64,000 nucleotides of DNA, taken from IMG/VR virus record IMGVR_UViG_3300043427_003402; one strand, written 5' to 3'. Position 1 is the first letter of the stretch, and each line of letters opens with the position of its first letter. The stretch is from a virus. The translations under genes and the position numbers were made by a program. A model generated the notes under the pieces. The model was not told the origin of the DNA. It searched no databases and was given only the letters and a program-made list of their open reading frames with translations. This document shows, one piece after another, positions 825 to 37,370 of this stretch.

Positions 825-3800
825 GTGAGAATGAGTTTTGACCGTATTCTGTACAGCGAGTCACCGAGCGCTCAAATGCGTGGCACGCACCGCTGCGACT
901 CGACAATTAGCGAGCTAGTTACCAAGTTAACCCGGCACATTGTGTCGGCCCGAAAAGATACCGTCGGCCTGTACTCTTTTTGCCTGTTCGATGGTATTGG
1001 GCGCAAAACTGTTAACGCCAAGTCGGTCGAAGCTATCGTATTAGACTTTGACAACACTGAGGTACGCCAAGCCGGAGGGATACCGAACGGCCAAGTCGCT
1101 AAGCTGGGAAACATGGTTGACCCTCCGGTAAATCCGGAACAACTCGAGGAGCTTTTACGTGCTCGGAACATTCACTCTATCGTGACTACGTCGTATAACC
1201 ACAAGCCAGAGTGGCCTAAGTTCCGCGTCATCGTGTTTGTTACTGAGTCGATTCCCGTGCACGCCTACCAACACGTGGTAGGGGACTTCCTTACCGCATC
1301 CGGCATCGCACAGGGCCAACTAATCACTGGGCTTGATCCGTCTTGTGTCCAGGCTACCCGGCTTTACTATTACCCTTCCTGCCCCGCTGAGCGCCTCGGC
1401 GACGCCTACGCTGTGTACATTGAGGGCGAGGACTACGCCCCCGACGCGACGCCCTTCATCAATCAGCCTCGCGGCACAATCGGCGGCTCACCCACCGCCC
1501 CCTCCAACTCCCGTTCACCCCAATGGACCCAGGACCAAATAGCAAGGTACTTCGACCGCGCTATGCCCCACTTAGCACCACGTGTACGCGAGGCACAGGA
1601 ACGCGGCGGCTCCGAGATCCGGGTTCCTTGCCCTATTCACCACGGTGACGGCAACAATTTCGCCTTCTCCACCGGCAACGGTCTTTGGCGGTGTTTCTCC
1701 CAGTGCCCTTCGATGGGCATCATGGGCGGCGGTATGTATGCCCTCCACTACTACTGGCGCAAGATGAACGCCCAACCCGGCACCCCCGAAATGCCTTACC
1801 GCGACACCCGCGTCGAACTGGACGCTTGGCTCGGTCCGCCTATCCGCCCCGATGCCCCGCAAGAGCTCCAATCCGTGGTGCACATCGCCGCCCCTAGTTC
1901 CGTCCCCTCGTCTGCGCTCGTTTCGATTACGACGCATTCCGCACCGCGCTCCGCCCCTTCCTTCCCTTCCACCGCTGTTGATGAGGACGACGTTACTGTG
2001 CCGTCTTTGGCTTCGCTCACTTCTTCGTACGCTTCCGCTTCCGCTTCCCGTCATGGCTCCCCTTCCATCCGCCTCCATTCCCTCGAAGACGGTGCCGCCG
2101 AACGCGCCGAACGCGTCTACGATCTTTTCGGCACCCGTATCAACACGGTCAAGCACGACCTTGACGAGAACGGGACGTACCTTCGTCAGCTGACGGGCTC
2201 CGGTGACCGCCAATCCATTCGCAACGTGGAGATTTCACCTCAACCGATTTGGATCAGCCGCGCCGGTAAAGACCCGAACACTGGTTTGAAGTGGTACAAA
2301 ATAAATTACCGCGACGGCTCCGGGACCGAATCAGCAGTTTGGACAAAGCTGGATGACCTAAATCGACAAGACTTTACAAAACTTAAAAATTTGGGTGTCG
2401 CAAGCAAGTATCGCCCCGACATCTCCGAGTACTTCAACAACGCAGCGCACGCTTACGACGAGGTCAACGATTACGTGCCAGTGACCGAAGCTTTCGGCTG
2501 GCAACCGCTTCCTGGTGCGAAGACGGTCACCGACGCAGCGCTCGTCCTCTACAACGGGGACGCGGACACTGGCGCTTGCCCGATGACGGTGGTAGCCCCT
2601 TCCATCCTCACTGCTTCTCAAGGCGACCGTGAGACGTGGGTCAACCTGCTACGGGATATGGCGGCTGAACCCTTCCACGACTTTTGCGTGGCGTGGGCCT
2701 TCCTTGGTCTCTCCGCCGCCTCTCCGATCGTCAGCCGCCTCCAGATGCGCAACCCCTTGCTAATGTGCGCGTATCGCACCAGCGCGGGTAAGTCTACGCT
2801 CGCCAACTTGGCCCTCGCTTTGTGGACCAACCCGACCGACAGCACGTTGCCTGCTGACACGACCAACAAAGGTGCTGAGGACCTCATTGTAAAGCGCCCT
2901 GAGCTGCCCGTCCTCGTCGAGGAGTTTCAGCGCGTGGCCCGTGACAACCCCAAAGACGTCAACCGCTTCCTTTACGCCATGGCCAACGGCCAGCGCCGCG
3001 TCACCTCGAGCCGTGACTTGCAGCACCGGGGCGGTGAAGTGCGCAAGGGGTCTGTGCTGTTCGTCACCGAAGATGATCTAAGCAGTCAATTTCAGCAAGG
3101 CGCCAGCGTGCGTGTGTTGGTCATGACGGATCGCCCTTTGCCAGAGAAGACAGGCGCACACTGGTCTCAAAGAATTAAAGCGGTCGCTGACCGGCACTTC
3201 GGCGTGCTGGGCCCCGAGCTGGAGGCGCAGTATACTCGCAACTTGCGCATGTACTTGATCGAACACCAATCGCTGGTCAATCGGGTACGTAAAGAGGACG
3301 CACCGTTTGACGGGGATGATGTGAGCGCGATTGCCATGATGGGTTTTGGCCTGCGCCTTTTGTCGCGTTTGACGGGCGTAACGTTACCGGCAGAGGAAAC
3401 AATGCAGTACTTAATTGACACGGTGCGTGGCACGCGTGCAGTTGAGCGCGAAAATACGGATCTTAGGGATCAAATCTTCGCAGAGTTGATAATGTCAATA
3501 ACACAGTCTGACTGGTTGTCGATGGACGGAACGACTGAAGTTGCTTATGTGCCCAACCGAGGTCCTATAGCGGTACGGGGCAGGCAACTGATGCACCCGG
3601 ACGTGAGCGAGATGGAAATCTTCCTTCAAAGCGCACTGTTCCAAGACCTCATACGAAGACATCAAATTCACAACGTCAACAAGTTGGTTGACGCCTGGCT
3701 TCAAAAAGGTTTTCTTGCGGCGAACCCTGCTCGTCAAAACACCCGCGCCAGGTGGCACCGCAAGAACATCAACGGTCTCAGCAAGACAGATTTCAAGCAC

Positions 3801-3860
3801 GAAGGCGCCTACGTCTATCTTGTCACACCTTTGGGGATGCAGTTCGCCGATAGACATTAG
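825..3860 (+). CDS. Primase-helicase: N-terminal AEP-like primase, CHC2-type Zn finger, DUF927-like region and SF3-like helicase
   Basis: LDFDN and TTSYNH..KFRV primase-like motifs; CPIH..WRCFSQC; Walker A YRTSAGKST, Walker B VLVEE, NG-x-RR motif. Confidence 0.8.
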   Translation: MRMSFDRILYSESPSAQMRGTHRCDSTISELVTKLTRHIVSARKDTVGLYSFCLFDGIGRKTVNAKSVEAIVLDFDNTEVRQAGGIPNGQVAKLGNMVDPPVNPEQLEELLRARNIHSIVTTSYNHKPEWPKFRVIVFVTESIPVHAYQHVVGDFLTASGIAQGQLITGLDPSCVQATRLYYYPSCPAERLGDAYAVYIEGEDYAPDATPFINQPRGTIGGSPTAPSNSRSPQWTQDQIARYFDRAMPHLAPRVREAQERGGSEIRVPCPIHHGDGNNFAFSTGNGLWRCFSQCPSMGIMGGGMYALHYYWRKMNAQPGTPEMPYRDTRVELDAWLGPPIRPDAPQELQSVVHIAAPSSVPSSALVSITTHSAPRSAPSFPSTAVDEDDVTVPSLASLTSSYASASASRHGSPSIRLHSLEDGAAERAERVYDLFGTRINTVKHDLDENGTYLRQLTGSGDRQSIRNVEISPQPIWISRAGKDPNTGLKWYKINYRDGSGTESAVWTKLDDLNRQDFTKLKNLGVASKYRPDISEYFNNAAHAYDEVNDYVPVTEAFGWQPLPGAKTVTDAALVLYNGDADTGACPMTVVAPSILTASQGDRETWVNLLRDMAAEPFHDFCVAWAFLGLSAASPIVSRLQMRNPLLMCAYRTSAGKSTLANLALALWTNPTDSTLPADTTNKGAEDLIVKRPELPVLVEEFQRVARDNPKDVNRFLYAMANGQRRVTSSRDLQHRGGEVRKGSVLFVTEDDLSSQFQQGASVRVLVMTDRPLPEKTGAHWSQRIKAVADRHFGVLGPELEAQYTRNLRMYLIEHQSLVNRVRKEDAPFDGDDVSAIAMMGFGLRLLSRLTGVTLPAEETMQYLIDTVRGTRAVERENTDLRDQIFAELIMSITQSDWLSMDGTTEVAYVPNRGPIAVRGRQLMHPDVSEMEIFLQSALFQDLIRRHQIHNVNKLVDAWLQKGFLAANPARQNTRARWHRKNINGLSKTDFKHEGAYVYLVTPLGMQFADRH

Positions 3861-3869
3861 GAGGGCTCG

Positions 3870-4214
3870 ATGTCGCAGTGGCCGTCGTTCTTCAAGAAAC
3901 CCTTGAGTAGGCTCTTCGACAGCACCCCTGAAGTCACCCCAGAAGATGCCGAATTTTCTCCTCCCCGGCTCCGCCTCCTTCCCCGATTGACTGCCTTACT
4001 CAGCCACCCCTCAGCCCGGCCTCCATATCTGTTGTGGACGCTGATACTGACAGGGTGGCTGAGTTTGGGAGTCATCTTGGGCAGCTGGGGTACGATTCTC
4101 TTCCTGCTGTACATGCTTTTCGTACCGCGGCACCCTGCTCCGCCTGCTGCGCGCCCGCAGCCTCAGACGTTGAGCGTTTCGCTTCCAGCACAAAGTGCAA
4201 TTTGCACAAAATAA
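3870..4214 (+). CDS. Small hypothetical membrane protein
   Basis: AGGAGG SD upstream; two hydrophobic segments. Confidence 0.6.
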   Translation: MSQWPSFFKKPLSRLFDSTPEVTPEDAEFSPPRLRLLPRLTALLSHPSARPPYLLWTLILTGWLSLGVILGSWGTILFLLYMLFVPRHPAPPAARPQPQTLSVSLPAQSAICTK

Positions 4215-4217
4215 GTA

Positions 4218-4247
4218 TTGCATTTAGCCCAGCCTTTTTGCTAGCTT
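4218..4247 (+). promoter_or_regulatory. Sigma70-type promoter for the omegaRNA-tnpB unit
   Basis: TTGCAT (4218-4223), 18 nt, TGcTAGCTT (4239-4247); predicted start about 4253-4255, at the first base of the upstream scaffold. Confidence 0.5.
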
Positions 4248-4254
4248 AAGGCTT

Positions 4255-4348
4255 GGCCGGCCGGGCGGGTCGACCTCAATGCTCGCGGAGAGGGTAACCT
4301 CGAACCGAGAACCCAAAAGGGACGCCAACCTCAGGTTTTGCGCCTTAT
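4255..4348 (+). ncRNA. Upstream TnpB omegaRNA-like scaffold (4255-4328) plus first guide segment
   Basis: 62/74 nt identical to the scaffold overlapping the tnpB 3' end (5481-5554); substitutions are mostly in loops or compensatory. Confidence 0.75.
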
Positions 4349-4397
4349 GGGAAGCCGAAGAGCGGATCTGGCCACAGCGCGCCTTACGGGAAGCCAA
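4319..4397 (+). CRISPR. Miniature CRISPR-like repeat-spacer array upstream of tnpB (non-canonical)
   Basis: GGGACGCCAA (4319), GGGAAGCCGA (4349), GGGAAGCCAA (4388); 17-nt GCGCCTTAYGGGAAGCC at 4340-4356 and 4379-4395 separated by a unique 22-nt segment. Confidence 0.5.
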
Positions 4398-4402
4398 ACT
4401 TT

Positions 4403-5566
4403 GTGTATCAAACCTTCAAGTATCGACTCGAGCCTACCGAAGCGCAAAGAAGCACCTTTGCTCGTTTTGCGGGCAGCCGCCGTTTTATCTATAACTGGGC
4501 GCTTGCGGAGCGGATTGCCGTGTACGAACGTGATAAAGCGTCCTTGTCTTTTTTCAGCCAAAGCGCCGAGCTAACTAAGCTCAAACAGGAAGAAGACAAG
4601 GCTTGGCTAAACGAAGTGGACCGCAGAGTGCTGGTCTCGGGGCTCAAAGACTTGGACCTTGCTTTCCAAGCTTTCTTTCGACGGTTAAAGTCCAGCGAGA
4701 CGCCAGGCTTTCCGAAATTTAAAAAGAAATCACGCCGCGAGTCGTTTCGCTATGCGACAGGCGTCAAGGTACAGGACAATCGCGTTTATTTACCGAGTAT
4801 TGGCTGGGTCAAGCTGCGGCTTTCTCGCCCGGTGAAGGGTAAAATTTGTCAGGCCACGGTGCGGCAAGACGGCGAGCACTGGTTCGTTTGCCTCATCTGT
4901 GACGTACCTGCGCCCGAAGTAACCTCTGCGCCTACTGACGACGTGGTTGGCGTGGACGTCGGTATTAGCAGCTTTGCTCACCTGTCCGACGGCACGCAAA
5001 TCGAAAACCCGCGCTTCTTAGAGAGGGCTTTGGAGAAACTACAGGCGGCTCAGCAGGACTTGAGCCGCAAGACGCTGCGCTCGAATCGGTGGCGCAAGCA
5101 GGCCGCGAAGGTGGCGAAGCTGCATCGCAAAGTGCGAAATTCACGAACGGACTTTCTGCACAAGACATCCACTGACTTGGTCAAGCGCTATGACGCGCTT
5201 GCAGTCGAGACTTTGAGTATTGAAGATATGACGGTGACGGCTCACAGGAACCGGTCGCGAGCGATCGCTGACTCTAGCTGGGGCGCCTTCTTCGATAAAC
5301 TCGAATACAAAACTAAGTGGGCGGGTAAGCATTTGGTTCGCGTGGACCGGTACTACCCAAGCACTCAGTTGTGTTCATCTTGCGGTGCCCGCAAGGCCAT
5401 GCCCACCGACGTGCGCACTTATAAGTGTGACGCGTGCGGTTTGGTCATGGACCGCGATTTGAACGCAAGCCTAAACCTCAGGGCGGCAGGGCATGCCGTC
5501 CTTAATGCTCGCGGAGAGGGCGACCTTGAACCGAGAACCCGGAAGGGACGCCAATTGAACCTGTGA
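4403..5566 (+). CDS. tnpB: IS200/IS605-family RNA-guided endonuclease TnpB
   Basis: N-terminal FKYRLEPT..RFIYNWAL HTH; RuvC-I VGVDVG, RuvC-II VETL, Zn finger CSSC..CDAC, RuvC-III DRDLNASLNL; catalytic D/E/D all present. Confidence 0.95.
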   Translation: MYQTFKYRLEPTEAQRSTFARFAGSRRFIYNWALAERIAVYERDKASLSFFSQSAELTKLKQEEDKAWLNEVDRRVLVSGLKDLDLAFQAFFRRLKSSETPGFPKFKKKSRRESFRYATGVKVQDNRVYLPSIGWVKLRLSRPVKGKICQATVRQDGEHWFVCLICDVPAPEVTSAPTDDVVGVDVGISSFAHLSDGTQIENPRFLERALEKLQAAQQDLSRKTLRSNRWRKQAAKVAKLHRKVRNSRTDFLHKTSTDLVKRYDALAVETLSIEDMTVTAHRNRSRAIADSSWGAFFDKLEYKTKWAGKHLVRVDRYYPSTQLCSSCGARKAMPTDVRTYKCDACGLVMDRDLNASLNLRAAGHAVLNARGEGDLEPRTRKGRQLNL

Positions 5567-5614
5567 CCTACCCGCGTCAATTTCGGGAAGCCAATTGCCA
5601 TCCATCTCTTAACC
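5481..5614 (+). ncRNA. Downstream omegaRNA scaffold overlapping the tnpB 3' end, with guide, extra repeat and second guide
   Basis: Canonical position; hairpins GGGCGGCA/UGCCGUCC, AGG-GCGA-CCU, CCC-GGAA-GGG; GGGACGCCAATTG (5545) recurs as GGGAAGCCAATTG (5585). Confidence 0.75.
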
Positions 5615-5734
5615 AAAAGTAAACATTTGTTAACTTAATCTTTACTCTATTGACCTGCTGTCCCACTACTGTTAGTATGCTGAAAGGTTGGATTTGGTAG
5701 AATTTATTGGTTAAATTGCCTGTAGCGTGGTAGG

Positions 5735-7966
5735 GTGTTTTGGGCCGCGCTACGGGGTAGCGAGAGAGGTTTGGGTATGGTGCTGCAAACTGCGTCGGAA
5801 CCTGCTGACTTAAGCCCGCAGGGGGCTGTGGTTCCCCCTTACATTCAGGTGGTGTACGACTTCTCGTTTCTGCGTTTGTTTTTCAACGCTAACGCCCGCT
5901 GGGTAGGGCCGGCGGTCAGTGGGTTCGACATCGAGACCGAAGGCTTGTTGAATCCCCACGACGGCGAGGTAGCGACAATCCAGATTGAGATGTCTGGCCG
6001 GTGCTGGGTGGTGCACGTCCGGGCACCGGGTACTTTGTTGGACGTGCCGGATGTAGAATTGCTGCGCGCGTACCTTGAGGCGAACGAGGTGTGCAAGGTC
6101 ATCCACAACGCCAAGTTCGAGTTGAAGTGGATGATGAAGTACTTCGGCCTCGGCCTGCACGTGGACAACTTCCACGACACGATTATTGCCGAGTACATTT
6201 TGGCGGCGGGCTTCGGCTTCGGCGTACCATCGACGACCAGCTTCGAGTTTGACAGCAGCATCCTCGGCTTGGGCCAAGTGATGGCGCGCCGGTATAGTGT
6301 TGAGATGGACAAGGATGAAGCGCTGCGGGTTAGTTTCCGGCGCCACGGCTTGCTGGAAACCATACCGGCACCCAAGGACCCGTTACGGGACCGCAGCGAA
6401 ACTTGCCAAGTGGATGACTGCCCACGGGCACCGCGGTGGTTGGCGGGCGGCGCTCGGCAGTATCAGATTTGTGATTATCACCGCGAGAACAAGCACGAGG
6501 TCAAGGCTTTGAAGGCCTTGCGCCGGTGGGATGACTACCCAGAAAGGCCACAGCCGGGGGCCAAGATGTTTGGTGACTTGAGCGCTCGGCAGGTGTTGTA
6601 CGCGGCCTTCGACGTGCTGTATATGCCGCAGCTGTACGTTGCGCAGGTGCAAGAGATGAACAACCACGTGGGCTTGCGGGGTGATCGCCCGTATCCTGCG
6701 CTGTTCCGTTTGGACTGCCAAGTGGCAGAGTGTTTGGCGCGTATGGAACTGCGGGGTATCCCCATCGACCGGCGCCAGGCGTTTAAGACGCATCGCACGC
6801 TGATGTGGCAGGCGGACACGTTGCGCCAAGAGATTGTAGAGGCGTTGCGGTTACCGGGTGATACGGAAGACATCAATCCTGGTAGCCGGGATCAGATGTT
6901 ACCGCGGCTGGCGCAGTTGGGGATCAATCTGCCGGATTACCGCAGCGCCAGCTTGGAGCGCGCGGCTAGCCACCCGGTGATTCGTAAGTTGTTGACGTGG
7001 AAGCAGGTCGAGAAGCTCAGCACGTTCACCAAGACGCTGTTGTTGGAAGCGCACCCGAAGACGGATTGTGTGCACAGTAACTTCAACCAGACCAAGACCG
7101 CCACGGGTCGCTTGAGCAGCAGCGCGCCCAACTTCCAGAACATCCCAAGCAAAAGCAAGCTGTCTGCGGAGATCCGTAAGTGCGTAATGGCGCGTCCGGG
7201 ACGCGTTTTGGTCATTGCGGATTACAGTAACATCGAAGTGCGAATAATTGCAGAAGTGACACGCGACGAGAATCTGGTGCGCTTGTTCAACGAAGACAAG
7301 GACATGCACTGCATGACGGCGGCGTATATGATGGGGGTCTCGTACGACGAAATGTACCGCAAGTACAAGATTGAAAAGCTGCCGGAGTTCATCAAGGCGC
7401 GTAACAACAGCAAGGTGCCTAACTTCGGGTTGGGGTACAAGGCTAGCGTGGACAAGTTGCGTACAATGGCGTGGGTGCAATACGGGCTGGACTGGACTGA
7501 GGCAGAGGCCGCCGAACAGCACCGCAAGTGGTTTGAGTTGTACCCTGGCGTGGGTCACTGGCACACACGGGAGCAGGCGACAGTCCGTGACGGGAAGGGC
7601 CCGGTCACGGTTGAGAACGCGTTGGGCCGTCGCCGCACGATGCAGCGCCGGATCACGGTGACCCCGAACGCCAAGGCACTCGAACGCGGCGAGCAGCCGT
7701 ACTCGAAGGGCGCGTTGCCGGCGGTGTTGAACTTCCCGATTCAATCGGCGTCGGCAGAGATGACCAAACGCGCGATGGCGACGTTGAGCCGGGAAGTGGA
7801 CGTGATCCTGCAGGTGCATGACGAATTGGTTGTGGAGTGTGATGAGGCGGACGCAGACCGCGTGTCGCAGCTTGTGCACGACGCGATGGTCAAAAGTGGT
7901 GAGGGCATCCTGACGGTCGTTCCAAACGTGGTCGAACCGATGGTGAGTAAGTTCTGGAAGAAATAG
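5735..7966 (+). CDS. polA: Family A DNA polymerase with 3'-5' exonuclease (likely start ATG 5777)
   Basis: ExoI FDIETEG, ExoII HNAKFE, ExoIII YAAFD; TGRLSS..PNFQNIP; motif A ADYSNIE; motif B R..SKVPNFGLGY; motif C QVHDEL. Confidence 0.95.
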   Translation: MFWAALRGSERGLGMVLQTASEPADLSPQGAVVPPYIQVVYDFSFLRLFFNANARWVGPAVSGFDIETEGLLNPHDGEVATIQIEMSGRCWVVHVRAPGTLLDVPDVELLRAYLEANEVCKVIHNAKFELKWMMKYFGLGLHVDNFHDTIIAEYILAAGFGFGVPSTTSFEFDSSILGLGQVMARRYSVEMDKDEALRVSFRRHGLLETIPAPKDPLRDRSETCQVDDCPRAPRWLAGGARQYQICDYHRENKHEVKALKALRRWDDYPERPQPGAKMFGDLSARQVLYAAFDVLYMPQLYVAQVQEMNNHVGLRGDRPYPALFRLDCQVAECLARMELRGIPIDRRQAFKTHRTLMWQADTLRQEIVEALRLPGDTEDINPGSRDQMLPRLAQLGINLPDYRSASLERAASHPVIRKLLTWKQVEKLSTFTKTLLLEAHPKTDCVHSNFNQTKTATGRLSSSAPNFQNIPSKSKLSAEIRKCVMARPGRVLVIADYSNIEVRIIAEVTRDENLVRLFNEDKDMHCMTAAYMMGVSYDEMYRKYKIEKLPEFIKARNNSKVPNFGLGYKASVDKLRTMAWVQYGLDWTEAEAAEQHRKWFELYPGVGHWHTREQATVRDGKGPVTVENALGRRRTMQRRITVTPNAKALERGEQPYSKGALPAVLNFPIQSASAEMTKRAMATLSREVDVILQVHDELVVECDEADADRVSQLVHDAMVKSGEGILTVVPNVVEPMVSKFWKK

Positions 7967-8617
7967 GTGTCTGGCATGTCTGAAGAATCTGCTAAAGAGT
8001 GTGCATCCTGCGACGAGCTTATTCGCGAGCTGGAGCTCGTCGAACTGGAGCTTAACGAGCAGACAGACATCATTGATAAGCTGCTAGAGGTATTGATGGG
8101 CGTCGAGGGTTTAGACTTTGCGCAACTGGGTTGGCTGCCAACTGACCTGCCACGCGTTGTGTCTGGGCTGCTAGGGTATATGAAAAGCCTTGAACAGTCC
8201 GCATCGGCTTCGGCGACGCTTGATAGCAGGCTATACGCAATCGAGGTCTGCGAAGCAGGGGAAGCGTGCGAGTTGGCGCGCGTGCAACTTGAGTCTGTGA
8301 AGGAAGAAGTCGTAGGCTTACGCGGCGCGTGCAAGACCATGAAGCGCGAACGCGACGCGGCTTTGCTGCGCAGTGCGCGGGACTTGGAGGCGTTGGCCGA
8401 CTTTAGGGCGGCAAGCGTACAGGCTCACCGCCTGATTAAACATCTTCGGTATTTACTGGGTGTCTCCAAGCAGGCGACTGACGAGACCGTGTTGTTCGAG
8501 GTAATTGATTTGTTAAGCGCTTTAAACCTCAAAGACGAAGCGACAGCGTTTGAAGAACTGGCCGTCTTCGACGACAACGCGGAGGCTGAAGAGGATGACG
8601 GAGCCGGTAGTACCTGA
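7967..8617 (+). CDS. Hypothetical acidic coiled-coil protein
   Basis: ORF abutting polA; heptad-like composition. Confidence 0.6.
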   Translation: MSGMSEESAKECASCDELIRELELVELELNEQTDIIDKLLEVLMGVEGLDFAQLGWLPTDLPRVVSGLLGYMKSLEQSASASATLDSRLYAIEVCEAGEACELARVQLESVKEEVVGLRGACKTMKRERDAALLRSARDLEALADFRAASVQAHRLIKHLRYLLGVSKQATDETVLFEVIDLLSALNLKDEATAFEELAVFDDNAEAEEDDGAGST

Positions 8618-20390: not shown

Positions 20391-21214
20391 GCGACATGCT
20401 GACACCTCGGCACCGTTACAACCGCGCGGCCATGAGTGTCGGCCTGCCCCCGGATCTTGACGGTTTAACTAACCGAGCAGCACCCGACGCGCTGACGCAA
20501 ATGGTAGAGACCGGCTTACGCGCGTGTGTTGGTGGGCAAGCCACGCGCAAACCGAAAGCCAAAGACAAAGCCCGGGGTAAGCTTATCGTTGGGCACGCAG
20601 ACTTCGCCCGCGCGTACGATCTCTACAAACAACCAGGTGCGCGCAAAACGTTCGATGCCGTGCTGCTAGCGACCTTGAGTGTAACGGACGCCGCAAACGT
20701 GCTGCGCGAAAAGGAAGCGTTTGTGCAGCTCTACGCCGACTGCTTTTTTGACATTTCGGTTTTCGAGGGCCCCACGGATCGGTTGACGTACCTCGATGCG
20801 GTCTACCGCCGCGACCCGCAGTACGCCCAGTTGCTGCGCAACATGCTGTCGGTGCCGCTTGAGCAGTTGCTGTTTATTGCAAATAGTTCGACAGGCGAGC
20901 GCTTGGACCCCAAGACGGTACTTGAAGCGGGCATGTCTTTGCATTACAATTTCATGCGGTTGTTCTCGCAGGTGAAACTAGAGACAATCATGTCGGCAGA
21001 CACGGACTCCGAAGATTACCGGCGGTTCAAGGAGATGTTCTCGATGGCGGTCACCGCGTCGAACTTGGCGCACAAGTTTGCTGACTCGCTGCTGAAGTAT
21101 GACTTGGATAAGGACCGCACCAACTTCTTGGACGAGTTTATTCTTAACCTGAGCAAGAGCAACCTTGCAGAGCACGTTTCTTTACCCGAAGCCGAAGACT
21201 TTGATATAATCTAA
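20387..21214 (+). CDS. Hypothetical protein
   Basis: GGAGG SD; overlaps the upstream stop codon. Confidence 0.65.
   Translation: MSDMLTPRHRYNRAAMSVGLPPDLDGLTNRAAPDALTQMVETGLRACVGGQATRKPKAKDKARGKLIVGHADFARAYDLYKQPGARKTFDAVLLATLSVTDAANVLREKEAFVQLYADCFFDISVFEGPTDRLTYLDAVYRRDPQYAQLLRNMLSVPLEQLLFIANSSTGERLDPKTVLEAGMSLHYNFMRLFSQVKLETIMSADTDSEDYRRFKEMFSMAVTASNLAHKFADSLLKYDLDKDRTNFLDEFILNLSKSNLAEHVSLPEAEDFDII
21202..21210 (+). promoter_or_regulatory. Consensus extended -10 promoter element
   Basis: TGATATAAT directly upstream of the orphan omegaRNA and HU-like gene. Confidence 0.5.
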
Positions 21215-21382
21215 GGGTCGGGCGATAACCAAGTCCGGCAACGGTAGAAATAAAATGGTATACCGCAGGGCATGCGGGAATTTAAGCTCGCGGAGAGGCT
21301 TAGCATTAGCGGCCTTGTCGAAACGAGAATCCCCCTGATTTAGCTGGGGGGGGGAAAGTCAAAGAGCTCTTATAAATTACGA
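21215..21382 (+). ncRNA. Orphan TnpB omegaRNA / non-autonomous IS200/IS605 right end
   Basis: Shares GCAGGGCATGC, GCTCGCGGAGAGG and GAANCGAGAA with the tnpB scaffolds; ends GAAT-CCCCC-loop-GGGGG-AAAG-TCAA (21362), the IS608-type right-end layout. Confidence 0.7.
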
Positions 21383-21389
21383 GGTTTGT

Positions 21390-21941
21390 ATGCCGCCACG
21401 TTTTTCCCTGTACAAGGCGCCCGTCACTCTCGGGTTCACCGAGGTGGAAGCGATCCTATCCGAGCGCACCGGTATCCGCCGCGACGACATCCGCCTTGTG
21501 CTGGACGAATTTTTCTACCTAGTCTTCGAGGCACTGCGCCGCGGGCACAACATTCGCTTGGCGCACATAGGCTTCTTCAACATCGTACGCACCTGGCCCC
21601 GGCTGTCGTGGAACTCTACGACCGGCAAACTGCAGTTCGTGCCGTCCGTGCATCAGGTCGGTTTTCGCGTGGCGCGCAGTACGTTGAATAAGATATTCGC
21701 TTACTTTACCAAGGGCCTTGAGCCAGTGGCACGTGAAGACTACGCTGAAGAAGTGTTACCTTATCACCTTGAGTACGCACTGCGTTCTGCGGACAAGCGG
21801 CTGTCACGAAACATGTTGGTCGATATGGAGGACTACGCGTTTTTGAAGCAGCTCGTAGAAGAGCTAAAAGAAAAAAGCCCAGAACCACCATCCTCTACCT
21901 CGTCCGAAGACGAGGTAGAAGGTGAGGAGTTGGTTACCTGA
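21390..21941 (+). CDS. HU/IHF-like DNA-binding protein with C-terminal extension
   Basis: LSERTGI..V..VLDEF..L..G..IRL..IGFF..R..WNSTTG...V.FR. Confidence 0.75.
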   Translation: MPPRFSLYKAPVTLGFTEVEAILSERTGIRRDDIRLVLDEFFYLVFEALRRGHNIRLAHIGFFNIVRTWPRLSWNSTTGKLQFVPSVHQVGFRVARSTLNKIFAYFTKGLEPVAREDYAEEVLPYHLEYALRSADKRLSRNMLVDMEDYAFLKQLVEELKEKSPEPPSSTSSEDEVEGEELVT

Positions 21942-36814: not shown

Positions 36815-37370
36815 CTAAAGGAAAAACCTTATTTCGCCGGCGCGAGCTGGCGATGAGGGAAATAACCATCACGCACACACACGCTCCCTACTAAGGAAGT
36901 GAATGTGAATGATAGTTATTCCCCTCATCGCCAGCCCGCGCTGACTCAGGGTGCCACGTATTTATCCTGCGCCCGTGACGGCGCGGAGCTAAAGGAAAAA
37001 CCTTATTTGCCAGCGCGAGCTGGCGACGAGAAGAATAACCATCACGCACACGCGCACGCACATACTCCCTCTTAAGGAAGTAAATGTGAGTGTGAATGTG
37101 AATGATAGTTATTCCCCTCATCGCCAGCCCGCGCTGACTCAGGGTGCCACGTATTTATCCTGCGCCCGTGACGGCGCGGAGCTAAAGGAAAAACCTTATT
37201 TGCCAGCGCGAGCTGGCGACGAGAAGAATAACCATCACGCACACGCGCACGCACATACTCCCTCTTAAGGAAGTAAATGTGAGTGTGAATGTGAATGATA
37301 GTTATTCCCCTCATCGCCAGCCCGCGCTGACTCAGGGTGCCACGTATTTATCCTGCGCCCGTGACGGCGC
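36815..37370 (-). ncRNA. Three tandem 174-193 bp units, each a long rod-like hairpin RNA
   Basis: Units start at 36815, 36989 and 37182; units 2 and 3 identical; 37 contiguous bp with 7 G.U pairs only on the minus strand. Confidence 0.7.

What the first reader, a model, noticed from the sequence alone, without database searches (positions are those of the whole stretch)
4319..4402. Proto-CRISPR mini-array: repeats copy the omegaRNA 3' end and are separated by guide-sized spacers
Seen: the scaffold terminus GGGACGCCAA (4319-4328) recurs as GGGAAGCCGA (4349) and GGGAAGCCAA (4388). The two extra copies share a 17-nt repeat, GCGCCTTAYGGGAAGCC, around a unique segment (AGAGCGGATCTGGCCACAGC, 4359-4378). 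The repeated part is the 3' strand of the last hairpin (GGG, pairing with CCC) plus GCC, which can pair with the GGC loop of the first scaffold hairpin as a pseudoknot. Established: type V Cas12 arose from TnpB, and the crRNA repeat is thought to derive from splitting the omegaRNA into tracrRNA and crRNA parts. Inference: each repeat plus spacer may load as a crRNA-like piece on a tracr-like scaffold, making this a minimal TnpB-to-Cas12 intermediate that standard CRISPR finders would miss. The last repeat also supplies the only SD-like sequence (GGGAAG) for the tnpB GTG start, which could couple processing to translation.
Basis: partly seen in the sequence, partly recalled or inferred. Interest (0 to 1): 0.88.

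Follow-up and report, generated by a model that had tools for sequence, protein, structure and literature searches.

The report
Phage TnpB with duplicated guide-RNA ends
A tailed phage carries a small RNA-guided nuclease (TnpB) whose guide-RNA end piece has been copied several times, and the short stretches behind each copy differ between strains; this looks like the raw material of a CRISPR array, but nothing shows that it works as one.

Summary
The 10-mer GGGAMGCCRA occurs five times in 64 kb against 0.8 expected. All five lie on one strand around tnpB (4403-5566): 4319, 4349, 4388, 5545 and 5585. Two of them end full guide-RNA (omegaRNA) scaffolds: the canonical one at the gene's 3' end (5467-5554) and an 86-nt copy upstream (4243-4328). 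Both scaffolds share two derived deletions, one of which removed the transposase hairpin. The upstream copy is therefore a local duplicate in an element that can no longer move.

A sister allele from another freshwater metagenome (L183) is 94% identical overall. The only windows at or below 75% identity are 4312-4412 and 5548-5579, which cover the stretches just behind the 10-mers.

The proto-CRISPR reading is only partly supported:
- The second upstream repeat is absent from the sister allele.
- The repeats pair with the scaffold no better than shuffled sequence.
- No protospacer was found.
- No relative carries such an array.

My best reading is a domesticated phage TnpB with two or three full omegaRNAs and swappable guides. 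The short repeats would be duplication by-products that border the guide cassettes. Earlier entries of this scan note mini-arrays beside TnpB on other DNA, so the theme is not new here.

The parts
4243..4328 (+). Upstream copy of the short-form omegaRNA scaffold, ending GGGACGCCAA
   Evidence: The best-matching 74 nt (4255-4328) are 84% identical to 5481-5554. Covariance model R1 scores it 64.6 bits; the sequence was part of the model's seed. It shares the 13-nt and 17-nt deletions of the 3'-end copy. 18 of 19 base pairs are kept.
4329..4348 (+). Segment S1: 20 nt behind the upstream scaffold terminus; candidate guide 1
   Evidence: The first 9-10 nt are replaced in L183 and in run X6 (CCTCAGGTT versus GCGGGGCAC), while the last 10 nt are 80% kept.
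4340..4359 (+). Repeat copy A (20 nt), containing the terminus-like 10-mer 4349-4358
   Evidence: The 10-mer is kept in L183 at 9 of 10 positions.
4359..4378 (+). Segment S2, the 'spacer' between the two 20-nt repeats
   Evidence: No similar sequence elsewhere in the window. Identity with L183 over 4359-4397 is only 26%, with indels.
4379..4398 (+). Repeat copy B (20 nt), containing the 10-mer 4388-4397, directly before the tnpB leader ACTTT-GTG
   Evidence: It is absent from the sister allele L183, which has ...GCCGCGCGAGGGT there.
4403..5566 (+). tnpB, 387 aa, with the RuvC D-E-D residues aligned to conserved positions
   Evidence: Pfam finds HTH_OrfB_IS605, OrfB_IS605 and Cas12f1-like_TNB. 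ISDra2 TnpB structures (8EXA, 8H1J) match at E = 2.4e-83.
5467..5554 (+). Canonical omegaRNA scaffold overlapping the tnpB 3' end, ending GGGACGCCAA
   Evidence: It aligns with the right ends of six relatives, and its stems are supported by covariation (9 of 32 predicted pairs carry compensatory changes). R1 scores it 70.1 bits; the sequence was part of the model's seed.
5555..5574 (+). Canonical guide position behind the true scaffold end (segment gB)
   Evidence: 71% identity with L183, against 97% for the scaffold and 100% for the next 20 nt. Bases 5555-5572 match the antisense of tRNA T-arms 18 of 18.
5570..5594 (+). Small hairpin (CCCG/CGGG) plus terminus-like 10-mer GGGAAGCCAA (5585-5594); the outermost element-derived sequence
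   Evidence: Bases 5575-5594 are 100% kept in L183, and the sequence diverges again directly behind 5594.
21257..21362 (+). Third, long-form orphan omegaRNA scaffold with a TGnTATAAT-like element upstream; it ends GTCAA
Evidence: R1 scores it 85.4 bits; the sequence was part of the model's seed. It aligns with the relatives and keeps the full terminal hairpin.

Best explanation
This is a domesticated TnpB/omegaRNA system in a tailed phage. It has no tnpA next to it and can probably no longer transpose.

Shown:
- The guide-RNA scaffold lost its transposase-binding hairpin. After that, its 3' module was duplicated locally.
- One full scaffold now lies in front of tnpB (4243-4328) and one at its 3' end (5467-5554). 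A third, long-form scaffold lies 16 kb away.
- Short copies of the scaffold's last 10-20 nt lie 20-30 nt behind the scaffold ends and behind one another.

Inferred:
- Each full scaffold is transcribed and bound by TnpB. The upstream one would form part of the tnpB leader.
- The 16-20 nt behind each scaffold terminus (S1 at 4329 onward, gB at 5555 onward) serve as guides for TAM-dependent DNA cleavage, probably of related phage or host DNA during co-infection.
- The short terminus copies are by-products of the duplications. At most they act as conserved right-hand borders of the guide cassettes, giving homology for guide exchange or a stop for 3' trimming. They are not independent crRNA repeats.
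For: - tnpB is intact, with the catalytic residues aligned to ISDra2-type TnpB.
- The scaffold structure is supported by covariation in relatives, and both window copies fit it.
- The upstream and 3'-end copies share two derived deletions that are absent from five relatives and from the copy at 21.2 kb. The upstream copy is therefore a post-deletion duplicate, not a second insertion.
- The upstream copy keeps 18 of 19 pairs despite 12 substitutions, including one A-U to C-G swap and a GNRA-to-GNRA loop change; P is about 0.08.
- All 5 differences between the two alleles of the upstream scaffold lie in loops or linkers.
- In the 1361-nt alignment with the sister allele, the only 20-nt windows at or below 75% identity are 4312-4412 and 5548-5579. 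These cover the stretches that start just behind the scaffold termini and the 4349 repeat.
- Run X6 shows the alternative S1 again, followed by GGGAAGCCAA.
- The guide behind the true right end differs between alleles although the sequence on both sides is kept. It is therefore not simply the flank of a new insertion site.
- The window encodes baseplate, tail sheath, helicase and polymerase genes, so the carrier is a phage.
Against: - There is no RNA evidence of any kind.
- The promoter scan found no sigma-70-type site in front of the upstream scaffold.
- Divergence of the upstream scaffold between alleles (about 6%) is close to my rough estimate for silent sites in tnpB (about 7%), so selection on it is not shown.
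- The structure-conservation test is only suggestive (P = 0.08).
- Only two alleles could be read in full.
- No target or TAM was found for any candidate guide.
- The variable segments could come from recombination between short direct repeats and not from selection on guides.
Confidence: 0.45

Rival explanations
1. Neutral scars. A tandem duplication of the unit 'tnpB + scaffold + flank' was followed by deletion of most of the first copy and by slippage or short-patch gene conversion between the short direct repeats. Only the canonical 3'-end omegaRNA would work. The upstream scaffold and all short repeats would be decaying leftovers.
For: - The repeat at 4388 abuts the tnpB leader exactly as a tandem-duplication junction with 5585-5594 would (m2|ACTTT).
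- That repeat is missing from the sister allele, so repeat number is unstable.
- Divergence of the upstream scaffold is near the neutral level.
- No relative has this architecture.
- An earlier entry of this scan (e1-5422267) judged a similar repeat-spacer-repeat in a TnpB locus to be a repair scar.
Against: - A 9-nt block replaced by an unrelated 9-nt block directly behind the terminus cannot be produced by slippage.
- 6 substitutions and 1 indel fall within the 20 nt after 5554, between a 97% identical scaffold and a 100% identical next 20 nt.
- The stems of the upstream scaffold are largely preserved.
Confidence: 0.33
2. One reading: a working proto-CRISPR. Each short repeat (mini-hairpin, 3' stem strand and pseudoknot strand) with the spacer behind it would be cut out as a crRNA-like piece. 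It would be completed in trans by a scaffold acting as tracrRNA, as in a TranC-type intermediate between TnpB and Cas12.
For: - The repeats correspond to the crRNA-like part of the omegaRNA as defined on the ISDra2 structure.
- Element-internal spacers bounded by terminus copies do not fit the rule that the guide is the flank of the element.
- The segments behind the 10-mers at 4349 and 5585 also differ between strains.
- Splitting of the omegaRNA is the accepted route to type V systems (TranC; PMC13565253).
- In the phage Cas12r system a single repeat is enough to make a guide (bioRxiv 10.64898/2026.04.20.719267).
Against: - Only about 3 + 3 bp could hold such a piece on the scaffold, and the computed duplexes are no better than for shuffled repeats (20-105 of 300 shuffles do as well).
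- The 4388 repeat is absent from the sister allele.
- The 'spacer' behind 4388 would be tnpB's own start region.
- There are no protospacers and no related arrays.
- cas1 and cas2 were not specifically searched for; Pfam and PHROGs scans of the neighbouring and ten largest ORFs showed none.
Confidence: 0.12
3. The real scaffold ends lie one unit further out, at 4358 and 5594. S1 and gB would then be variable internal inserts of the RNA, and the true guides would be the sequences behind 4358 and 5594, the latter being ordinary phage flank.
For: - 5594 is the outermost element-derived base. The sequence changes directly behind it (TTGC versus CAACAACAGTTTT), and a metagenome contig spans exactly 4238-5594.
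- 5570-5594 forms a 4-bp hairpin followed by AAGCCAA, like an intermediate-length terminal hairpin.
Against: - Similarity between the two scaffold copies, and with all relatives, stops at 4328 and 5554.
- The unit at 4340-4358 has no convincing hairpin.
Confidence: 0.1

Closest known systems
ISDra2-type TnpB with its omegaRNA (IS200/IS605 OMEGA system; PDB 8EXA, 8H1J; PMC10097598)
   Same: The protein family is the same (E = 2.4e-83 to the solved structures) and the catalytic residues align. The guide-RNA scaffold overlaps the 3' end of the gene. The last bases before the guide correspond to the pseudoknot strand, preceded by the last stem.
   Different: - No tnpA lies in the adjacent ORFs.
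- The terminal hairpin is cut down to 3 bp.
- A second full scaffold lies in front of the gene and a third lies 16 kb away.
- The guide position is followed by element-derived sequence, not by plain flank.
- The guides differ between strains at one and the same insertion site.
TranC (transposon-CRISPR intermediates) and type V systems with tracrRNA such as Cas12f (PMC13565253; PDB 9JFO LaTranC)
   Same: Repeats derive from the 3' part of the omegaRNA, next to a TnpB-sized nuclease, without nearby adaptation genes.
   Different: - The repeats are only 10-20 nt long, and at most three lie in a row.
- They show no anti-repeat complementarity above chance.
- Repeat number is not conserved between two alleles.
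- The protein matches LaTranC only weakly and only in its C-terminal part (E = 1.5e-21), against E = 2.4e-83 over nearly its whole length for ISDra2 TnpB.
Cas12r-CRISPR of Thermus Lalka phages (bioRxiv 10.64898/2026.04.20.719267)
   Same: A phage-encoded TnpB-like nuclease with a short array of degenerate repeats, and spacers that differ between related phages.
   Different: In Cas12r the array follows the gene. It has 29-bp repeats and 31-33-nt spacers with identified targets and a PAM, and its crRNAs were shown by sequencing. Here the repeats are much shorter, they are tied to full omegaRNA scaffolds, and no targets or RNAs are known.
Guide-RNA-only derivatives of IS200/IS605 elements (PATE-like, orphan omegaRNAs)
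   Same: The copy at 21.2 kb is a stand-alone scaffold that keeps the full right-end hairpin and the GTCAA end.
   Different: The upstream copy at 4243-4328 has no recognisable left end and lacks the transposase hairpin. It arose by duplication, not by transposition.

Membership tests
TnpB/omegaRNA (OMEGA) system | TnpB protein with a RuvC fold, D-E-D catalytic residues and a zinc-finger region | tested here: met
   Pfam finds three TnpB domains. The alignment to an ISDra2-like solved structure places D (GVDVG), E (AVETL) and D (DRDLN) at conserved positions.
TnpB/omegaRNA (OMEGA) system | Structured guide-RNA scaffold overlapping the 3' end of tnpB and ending at the element's right end | tested here: met
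   The alignment with six relatives gives a consensus fold in which 9 of 32 pairs carry compensatory changes.
Mobile IS200/IS605 element | tnpA, or at least intact left-end and right-end hairpins for a Y1 transposase | tested here: not met
   No Y1 transposase was seen among the ORFs at 825-8617. The right-end hairpin is reduced to CCC-GGAA-GGG by a 17-nt deletion relative to all relatives. No left-end hairpin of the kind seen in other loci was found.
Mobile IS200/IS605 element | The guide is plain flanking DNA outside the element | tested here: not met
   The 30 nt behind 5554 are followed by another terminus-like unit (5585-5594). The guide differs between alleles at the same site.
CRISPR array / TranC-type split guide | Several near-identical direct repeats separated by unique spacers of similar size | tested here: inconclusive
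   There are five 10-mers, two of them within 20-nt repeats, with spacers of 20, 29 and 30 nt. The repeats are far shorter than any known CRISPR repeat, and at most three lie in a row.
CRISPR array / TranC-type split guide | Repeats conserved and spacers variable among related genomes | tested here: inconclusive
   The spacers vary, and the repeats at 4349 and 5585 are kept. The repeat at 4388 is absent from the sister allele. Only two alleles were read in full.
CRISPR array / TranC-type split guide | Repeat pairs with an anti-repeat of a tracr-like RNA | tested here: not met
   RNAduplex energies of the repeats against the truncated scaffolds are reached by 20-105 of 300 shuffles.
CRISPR array / TranC-type split guide | Spacers match foreign DNA next to a shared TAM/PAM | tested here: not met
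   No match with up to 3 mismatches in the window. Only chance-level hits in 50,697 phage records.
CRISPR array / TranC-type split guide | Processed repeat-spacer RNAs bound by the nuclease | not testable with these tools
   No RNA run is listed for this DNA.

The most novel reading that the evidence does not exclude
A phage TnpB caught in the act of building an array without Cas1-Cas2. Copies of the condensed crRNA-like end of its own omegaRNA (mini stem plus pseudoknot strand) would bracket short cassettes. These cassettes would be exchanged between co-infecting phages by recombination in the conserved borders. Several of them (S1, S2, gB and the outer flank) would be used as guides, some supplied in trans to a scaffold. 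That would be a living intermediate between a single-guide transposon nuclease and a type V CRISPR array.
Probability: 0.12. Interest if true: 0.9.

Novelty: new variant of a known kind. Interest (0 to 1): 0.55.

Why it matters
How a transposon nuclease with one fixed guide became a CRISPR effector with many exchangeable guides is still reconstructed mostly from end states.

This locus shows several early steps in one natural phage population:
- loss of mobility;
- duplication of the guide-RNA module;
- element-internal guide-sized segments bounded by copies of the RNA's crRNA-like end;
- turnover of those segments between strains.

Even if the short repeats are only scars, a phage TnpB with two or three omegaRNAs and strain-specific guides at a fixed site would be a compact multi-guide weapon or homing device. 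It can be tested directly in a heterologous host.

Tried and rejected
- No whole genome is held for this window.
- The locus has no DNA match in the phage collection. An Rfam search of 3500-6500 gave nothing.
- A scaffold-pattern scan of the genome collection gave five chance hits unrelated to TnpB; the same scan of IMG/VR gave none.
- IMG/VR and metagenome scans with the TnpB protein gave relatives of at most 54% identity. Only L087 shares the scaffold.
- I looked for an empty site. The closest phages by polymerase (63-65% identity; L179, L180) have a different gene order and no similar intergenic DNA. Exact look-ups of the neighbouring small protein returned only identical loci.
- I considered the left-end hairpin idea. 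In ordinary TnpB elements the left end copies the right-end hairpin. Here the repeats copy the 3' strand plus the terminal heptamer, not the hairpin, and the hairpin itself is gone, so I dropped this as the main reading.
- I considered a tRNA gene at the right flank. ARAGORN finds no tRNA in the window, and the anticodon-arm register does not fit.
- No RNA holder is listed among the public runs.
- A scan for paired 10-mers in IMG/VR returned 120 loci. Many have spacings in multiples of three, which suggests coding repeats, and none encodes a TnpB.
- A search for N-terminal TnpB fragments that might carry further alleles found none.
- Two weak hits of the scaffold model at 32.5 kb and 37.7 kb (E about 0.05-0.07) do not look like scaffolds.

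Full report
**What is there**

The region lies in front of a 387-aa tnpB gene (4403-5566, + strand). The gene carries the three Pfam domains of IS605-type TnpB. It matches the solved ISDra2 TnpB structures at E = 2.4e-83, and the RuvC D-E-D residues align. Its neighbours are a DUF927 primase-like gene, a small ORF and a family A DNA polymerase. Further along, the window encodes a helicase, an exonuclease, a baseplate wedge protein and a tail sheath. The carrier is therefore a tailed phage. The same DNA occurs in several freshwater metagenomes.

**The observation**

The longer repeat is 20 nt with two mismatches (4340-4359 and 4379-4398). The 10-mer GGGAMGCCRA occurs five times in the 64-kb window against 0.79 expected, always on the + strand and always in this locus: 4319, 4349, 4388, 5545 and 5585.

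Two of the five end full guide-RNA scaffolds:
- The stretch 5467-5554 overlaps the tnpB 3' end.
- An upstream copy lies at 4243-4328. Its best-matching 74 nt (4255-4328) are 84% identical to 5481-5554.

**Is the scaffold end placed correctly?**

Six relatives whose TnpB is 54-58% identical were fetched. Their 3' ends align with the window's scaffold and end in a hairpin followed by GTCAA. This corresponds to CCC-GGAA-GGG-ACGCCAA in the window. The consensus fold has 32 pairs, 9 of them with compensatory changes. The two window copies lose all similarity directly behind GGGACGCCAA.

**Origin of the upstream copy**

It has the long form of the relatives, with a full terminal hairpin. The two copies beside tnpB share a 13-nt and a 17-nt deletion that are absent from all five relatives and from this third copy.

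The 17-nt deletion removes most of the right-end hairpin, which in IS200/IS605 elements is the transposase-binding site (established knowledge of the family). It follows that:
- The upstream copy is a duplicate made after the element lost that hairpin, so it arose by duplication and not by transposition.
- The short repeats carry GCCAA, not the GTCAA of the long form, so they also derive from the short-form terminus.

None of about 150 other TnpB loci compared, including the closest relatives, has an upstream scaffold copy. What ordinary elements share between their left and right ends is only a 19-30 nt hairpin.

**Strain variation**

Contigs from four other freshwater runs were laid on the locus. 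One sister allele, L183, could be read in full. It is 94% identical over 4238-5594.

| Segment | Identity with L183 |
|---|---|
| Upstream scaffold | 94% |
| tnpB up to the scaffold (4403-5466) | 97% |
| 3'-end scaffold | 97% |
| 5575-5594 | 100% |
| First 10 nt behind 4328 | 30% |
| 4359-4397 | 26% |
| 5555-5574 | 71% |

In the whole 1361-nt alignment, the only 20-column windows at or below 75% identity are 4312-4412 and 5548-5579.

Further details of the variation:
- Run X6 shows the alternative segment again: GCGGGGCACTTACGTCTGAT, followed by GGGAAGCCAA.
- Behind 5594 the alleles differ again, TTGC versus CAACAACAGTTTT.
- The repeat at 4388 is absent from L183, which has ...GCCGCGCGAGGGT in front of the same ACTTT-GTG leader.

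In short, sequence directly behind each terminus copy is variable. The repeat at 4349 and the hairpin-plus-terminus unit at 5575-5594 are stable, and the repeat at 4388 is specific to one lineage.

**Tests of the split-guide idea**

The ISDra2 structure paper describes a crRNA-like part of the omegaRNA: the 3' strand of the last stem, then the pseudoknot strand at positions -5 to -3, then the guide (PMC10097598). Four results count against it:
- The stem strand is only 3 nt long and the pseudoknot strand 3 nt.
- Duplexes between the repeats and the truncated scaffolds are no more stable than for shuffled repeats; 20 to 105 of 300 shuffles do as well.
- No candidate guide matches the window with up to 3 mismatches, and the phage collection gave only chance-level hits.
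- A scan of IMG/VR for paired 10-mers gave 120 loci, none of which encodes a TnpB.

**Is the upstream scaffold still functional?**

- It keeps 18 of 19 pairs despite 12 substitutions, including an A-U to C-G swap and a GCGA to GUAA loop change. Random substitutions do as well in 8% of trials.
- All five differences between the two alleles of this copy lie in loops or linkers.
- Its divergence (about 6%) is close to my rough estimate for silent sites in tnpB.
- The promoter scan found no site in front of it.

Function is therefore plausible but not shown.

**Reading**

The canonical rule for TnpB elements is that the guide is the host DNA outside the right end. That rule fails here. The guide position behind 5554 is followed by another element-derived terminus unit, and the guide differs between strains at one and the same site.

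I think the most likely picture (0.45) is a domesticated phage TnpB served by two or three full omegaRNAs. Their guide cassettes turn over between strains, and the short terminus copies are by-products that now border the cassettes.

The rival readings are:
- Neutral duplication scars (0.33). This reading explains the unstable repeat at 4388, but it does not explain the block replacements exactly behind the termini.
- A working split-guide mini-array (0.12).
- Scaffolds that really end one unit further out, at 4358 and 5594 (0.10).

**Comparison with what is known**

- The locus is a member of the TnpB/omegaRNA family.
- It is not a mobile IS200/IS605 element, because the tests for tnpA, the end hairpins and the flank guide were not met.
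- It is not a demonstrated CRISPR array.
- The closest described cases of the step it resembles are the TranC intermediates (PMC13565253) and the Cas12r arrays of Thermus phages, where repeats, spacers, targets and crRNAs are all established.
- Earlier entries of this scan report mini-arrays beside TnpB on other DNA, one of them judged a scar. I did not check those entries.

Noticed in passing
window 5555-5572: The 18 nt behind the true scaffold end (TTGAACCTGTGACCTACC) match 18 of 18 the antisense of the variable loop, T-stem and T-loop of phage tRNA genes: tRNA-Lys of mycobacteriophages and tRNA-Met of Enterobacter phage EcP1 (E = 3). The sister allele reads ...GAGTTCGA there, which is also T-loop-like but has no database match. 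No tRNA gene is found in the window. The segment may be a relic of an earlier insertion in a tRNA gene, a guide aimed at tRNA genes, or chance.
   Followed up: partly
window 21200-21400: A stand-alone long-form omegaRNA scaffold (21257-21362) lies behind a TGATATAAT element. It ends in GTCAA directly before the ribosome-binding site of the next gene, which would make that gene's leader its guide.
   Followed up: partly
window 4192-4208: Contigs from three runs enter the locus at 4192 from a different upstream sequence, and one contig leaves at 4208 into other DNA. The shared 17 nt contain the palindrome GTGCAATTTGCAC. This looks like a recombination joint or operator at the head of the tnpB module.
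   Followed up: no
window 3918-3929: Run X6 has a 12-nt insertion (GAAGTCACCCCA) behind 3929. It is a tandem copy of the preceding 12 nt inside the small ORF 3870-4214.
   Followed up: no
window 36899-37370: A 193-bp tandem repeat with 2.4 copies at 100% identity (Tandem Repeats Finder).
   Followed up: no
window 5650-5678: A promoter-like site (TTGACC, 17 nt, TAGTAT, with TG before the second hexamer) lies in front of the DNA polymerase gene, just outside the element.
   Followed up: no
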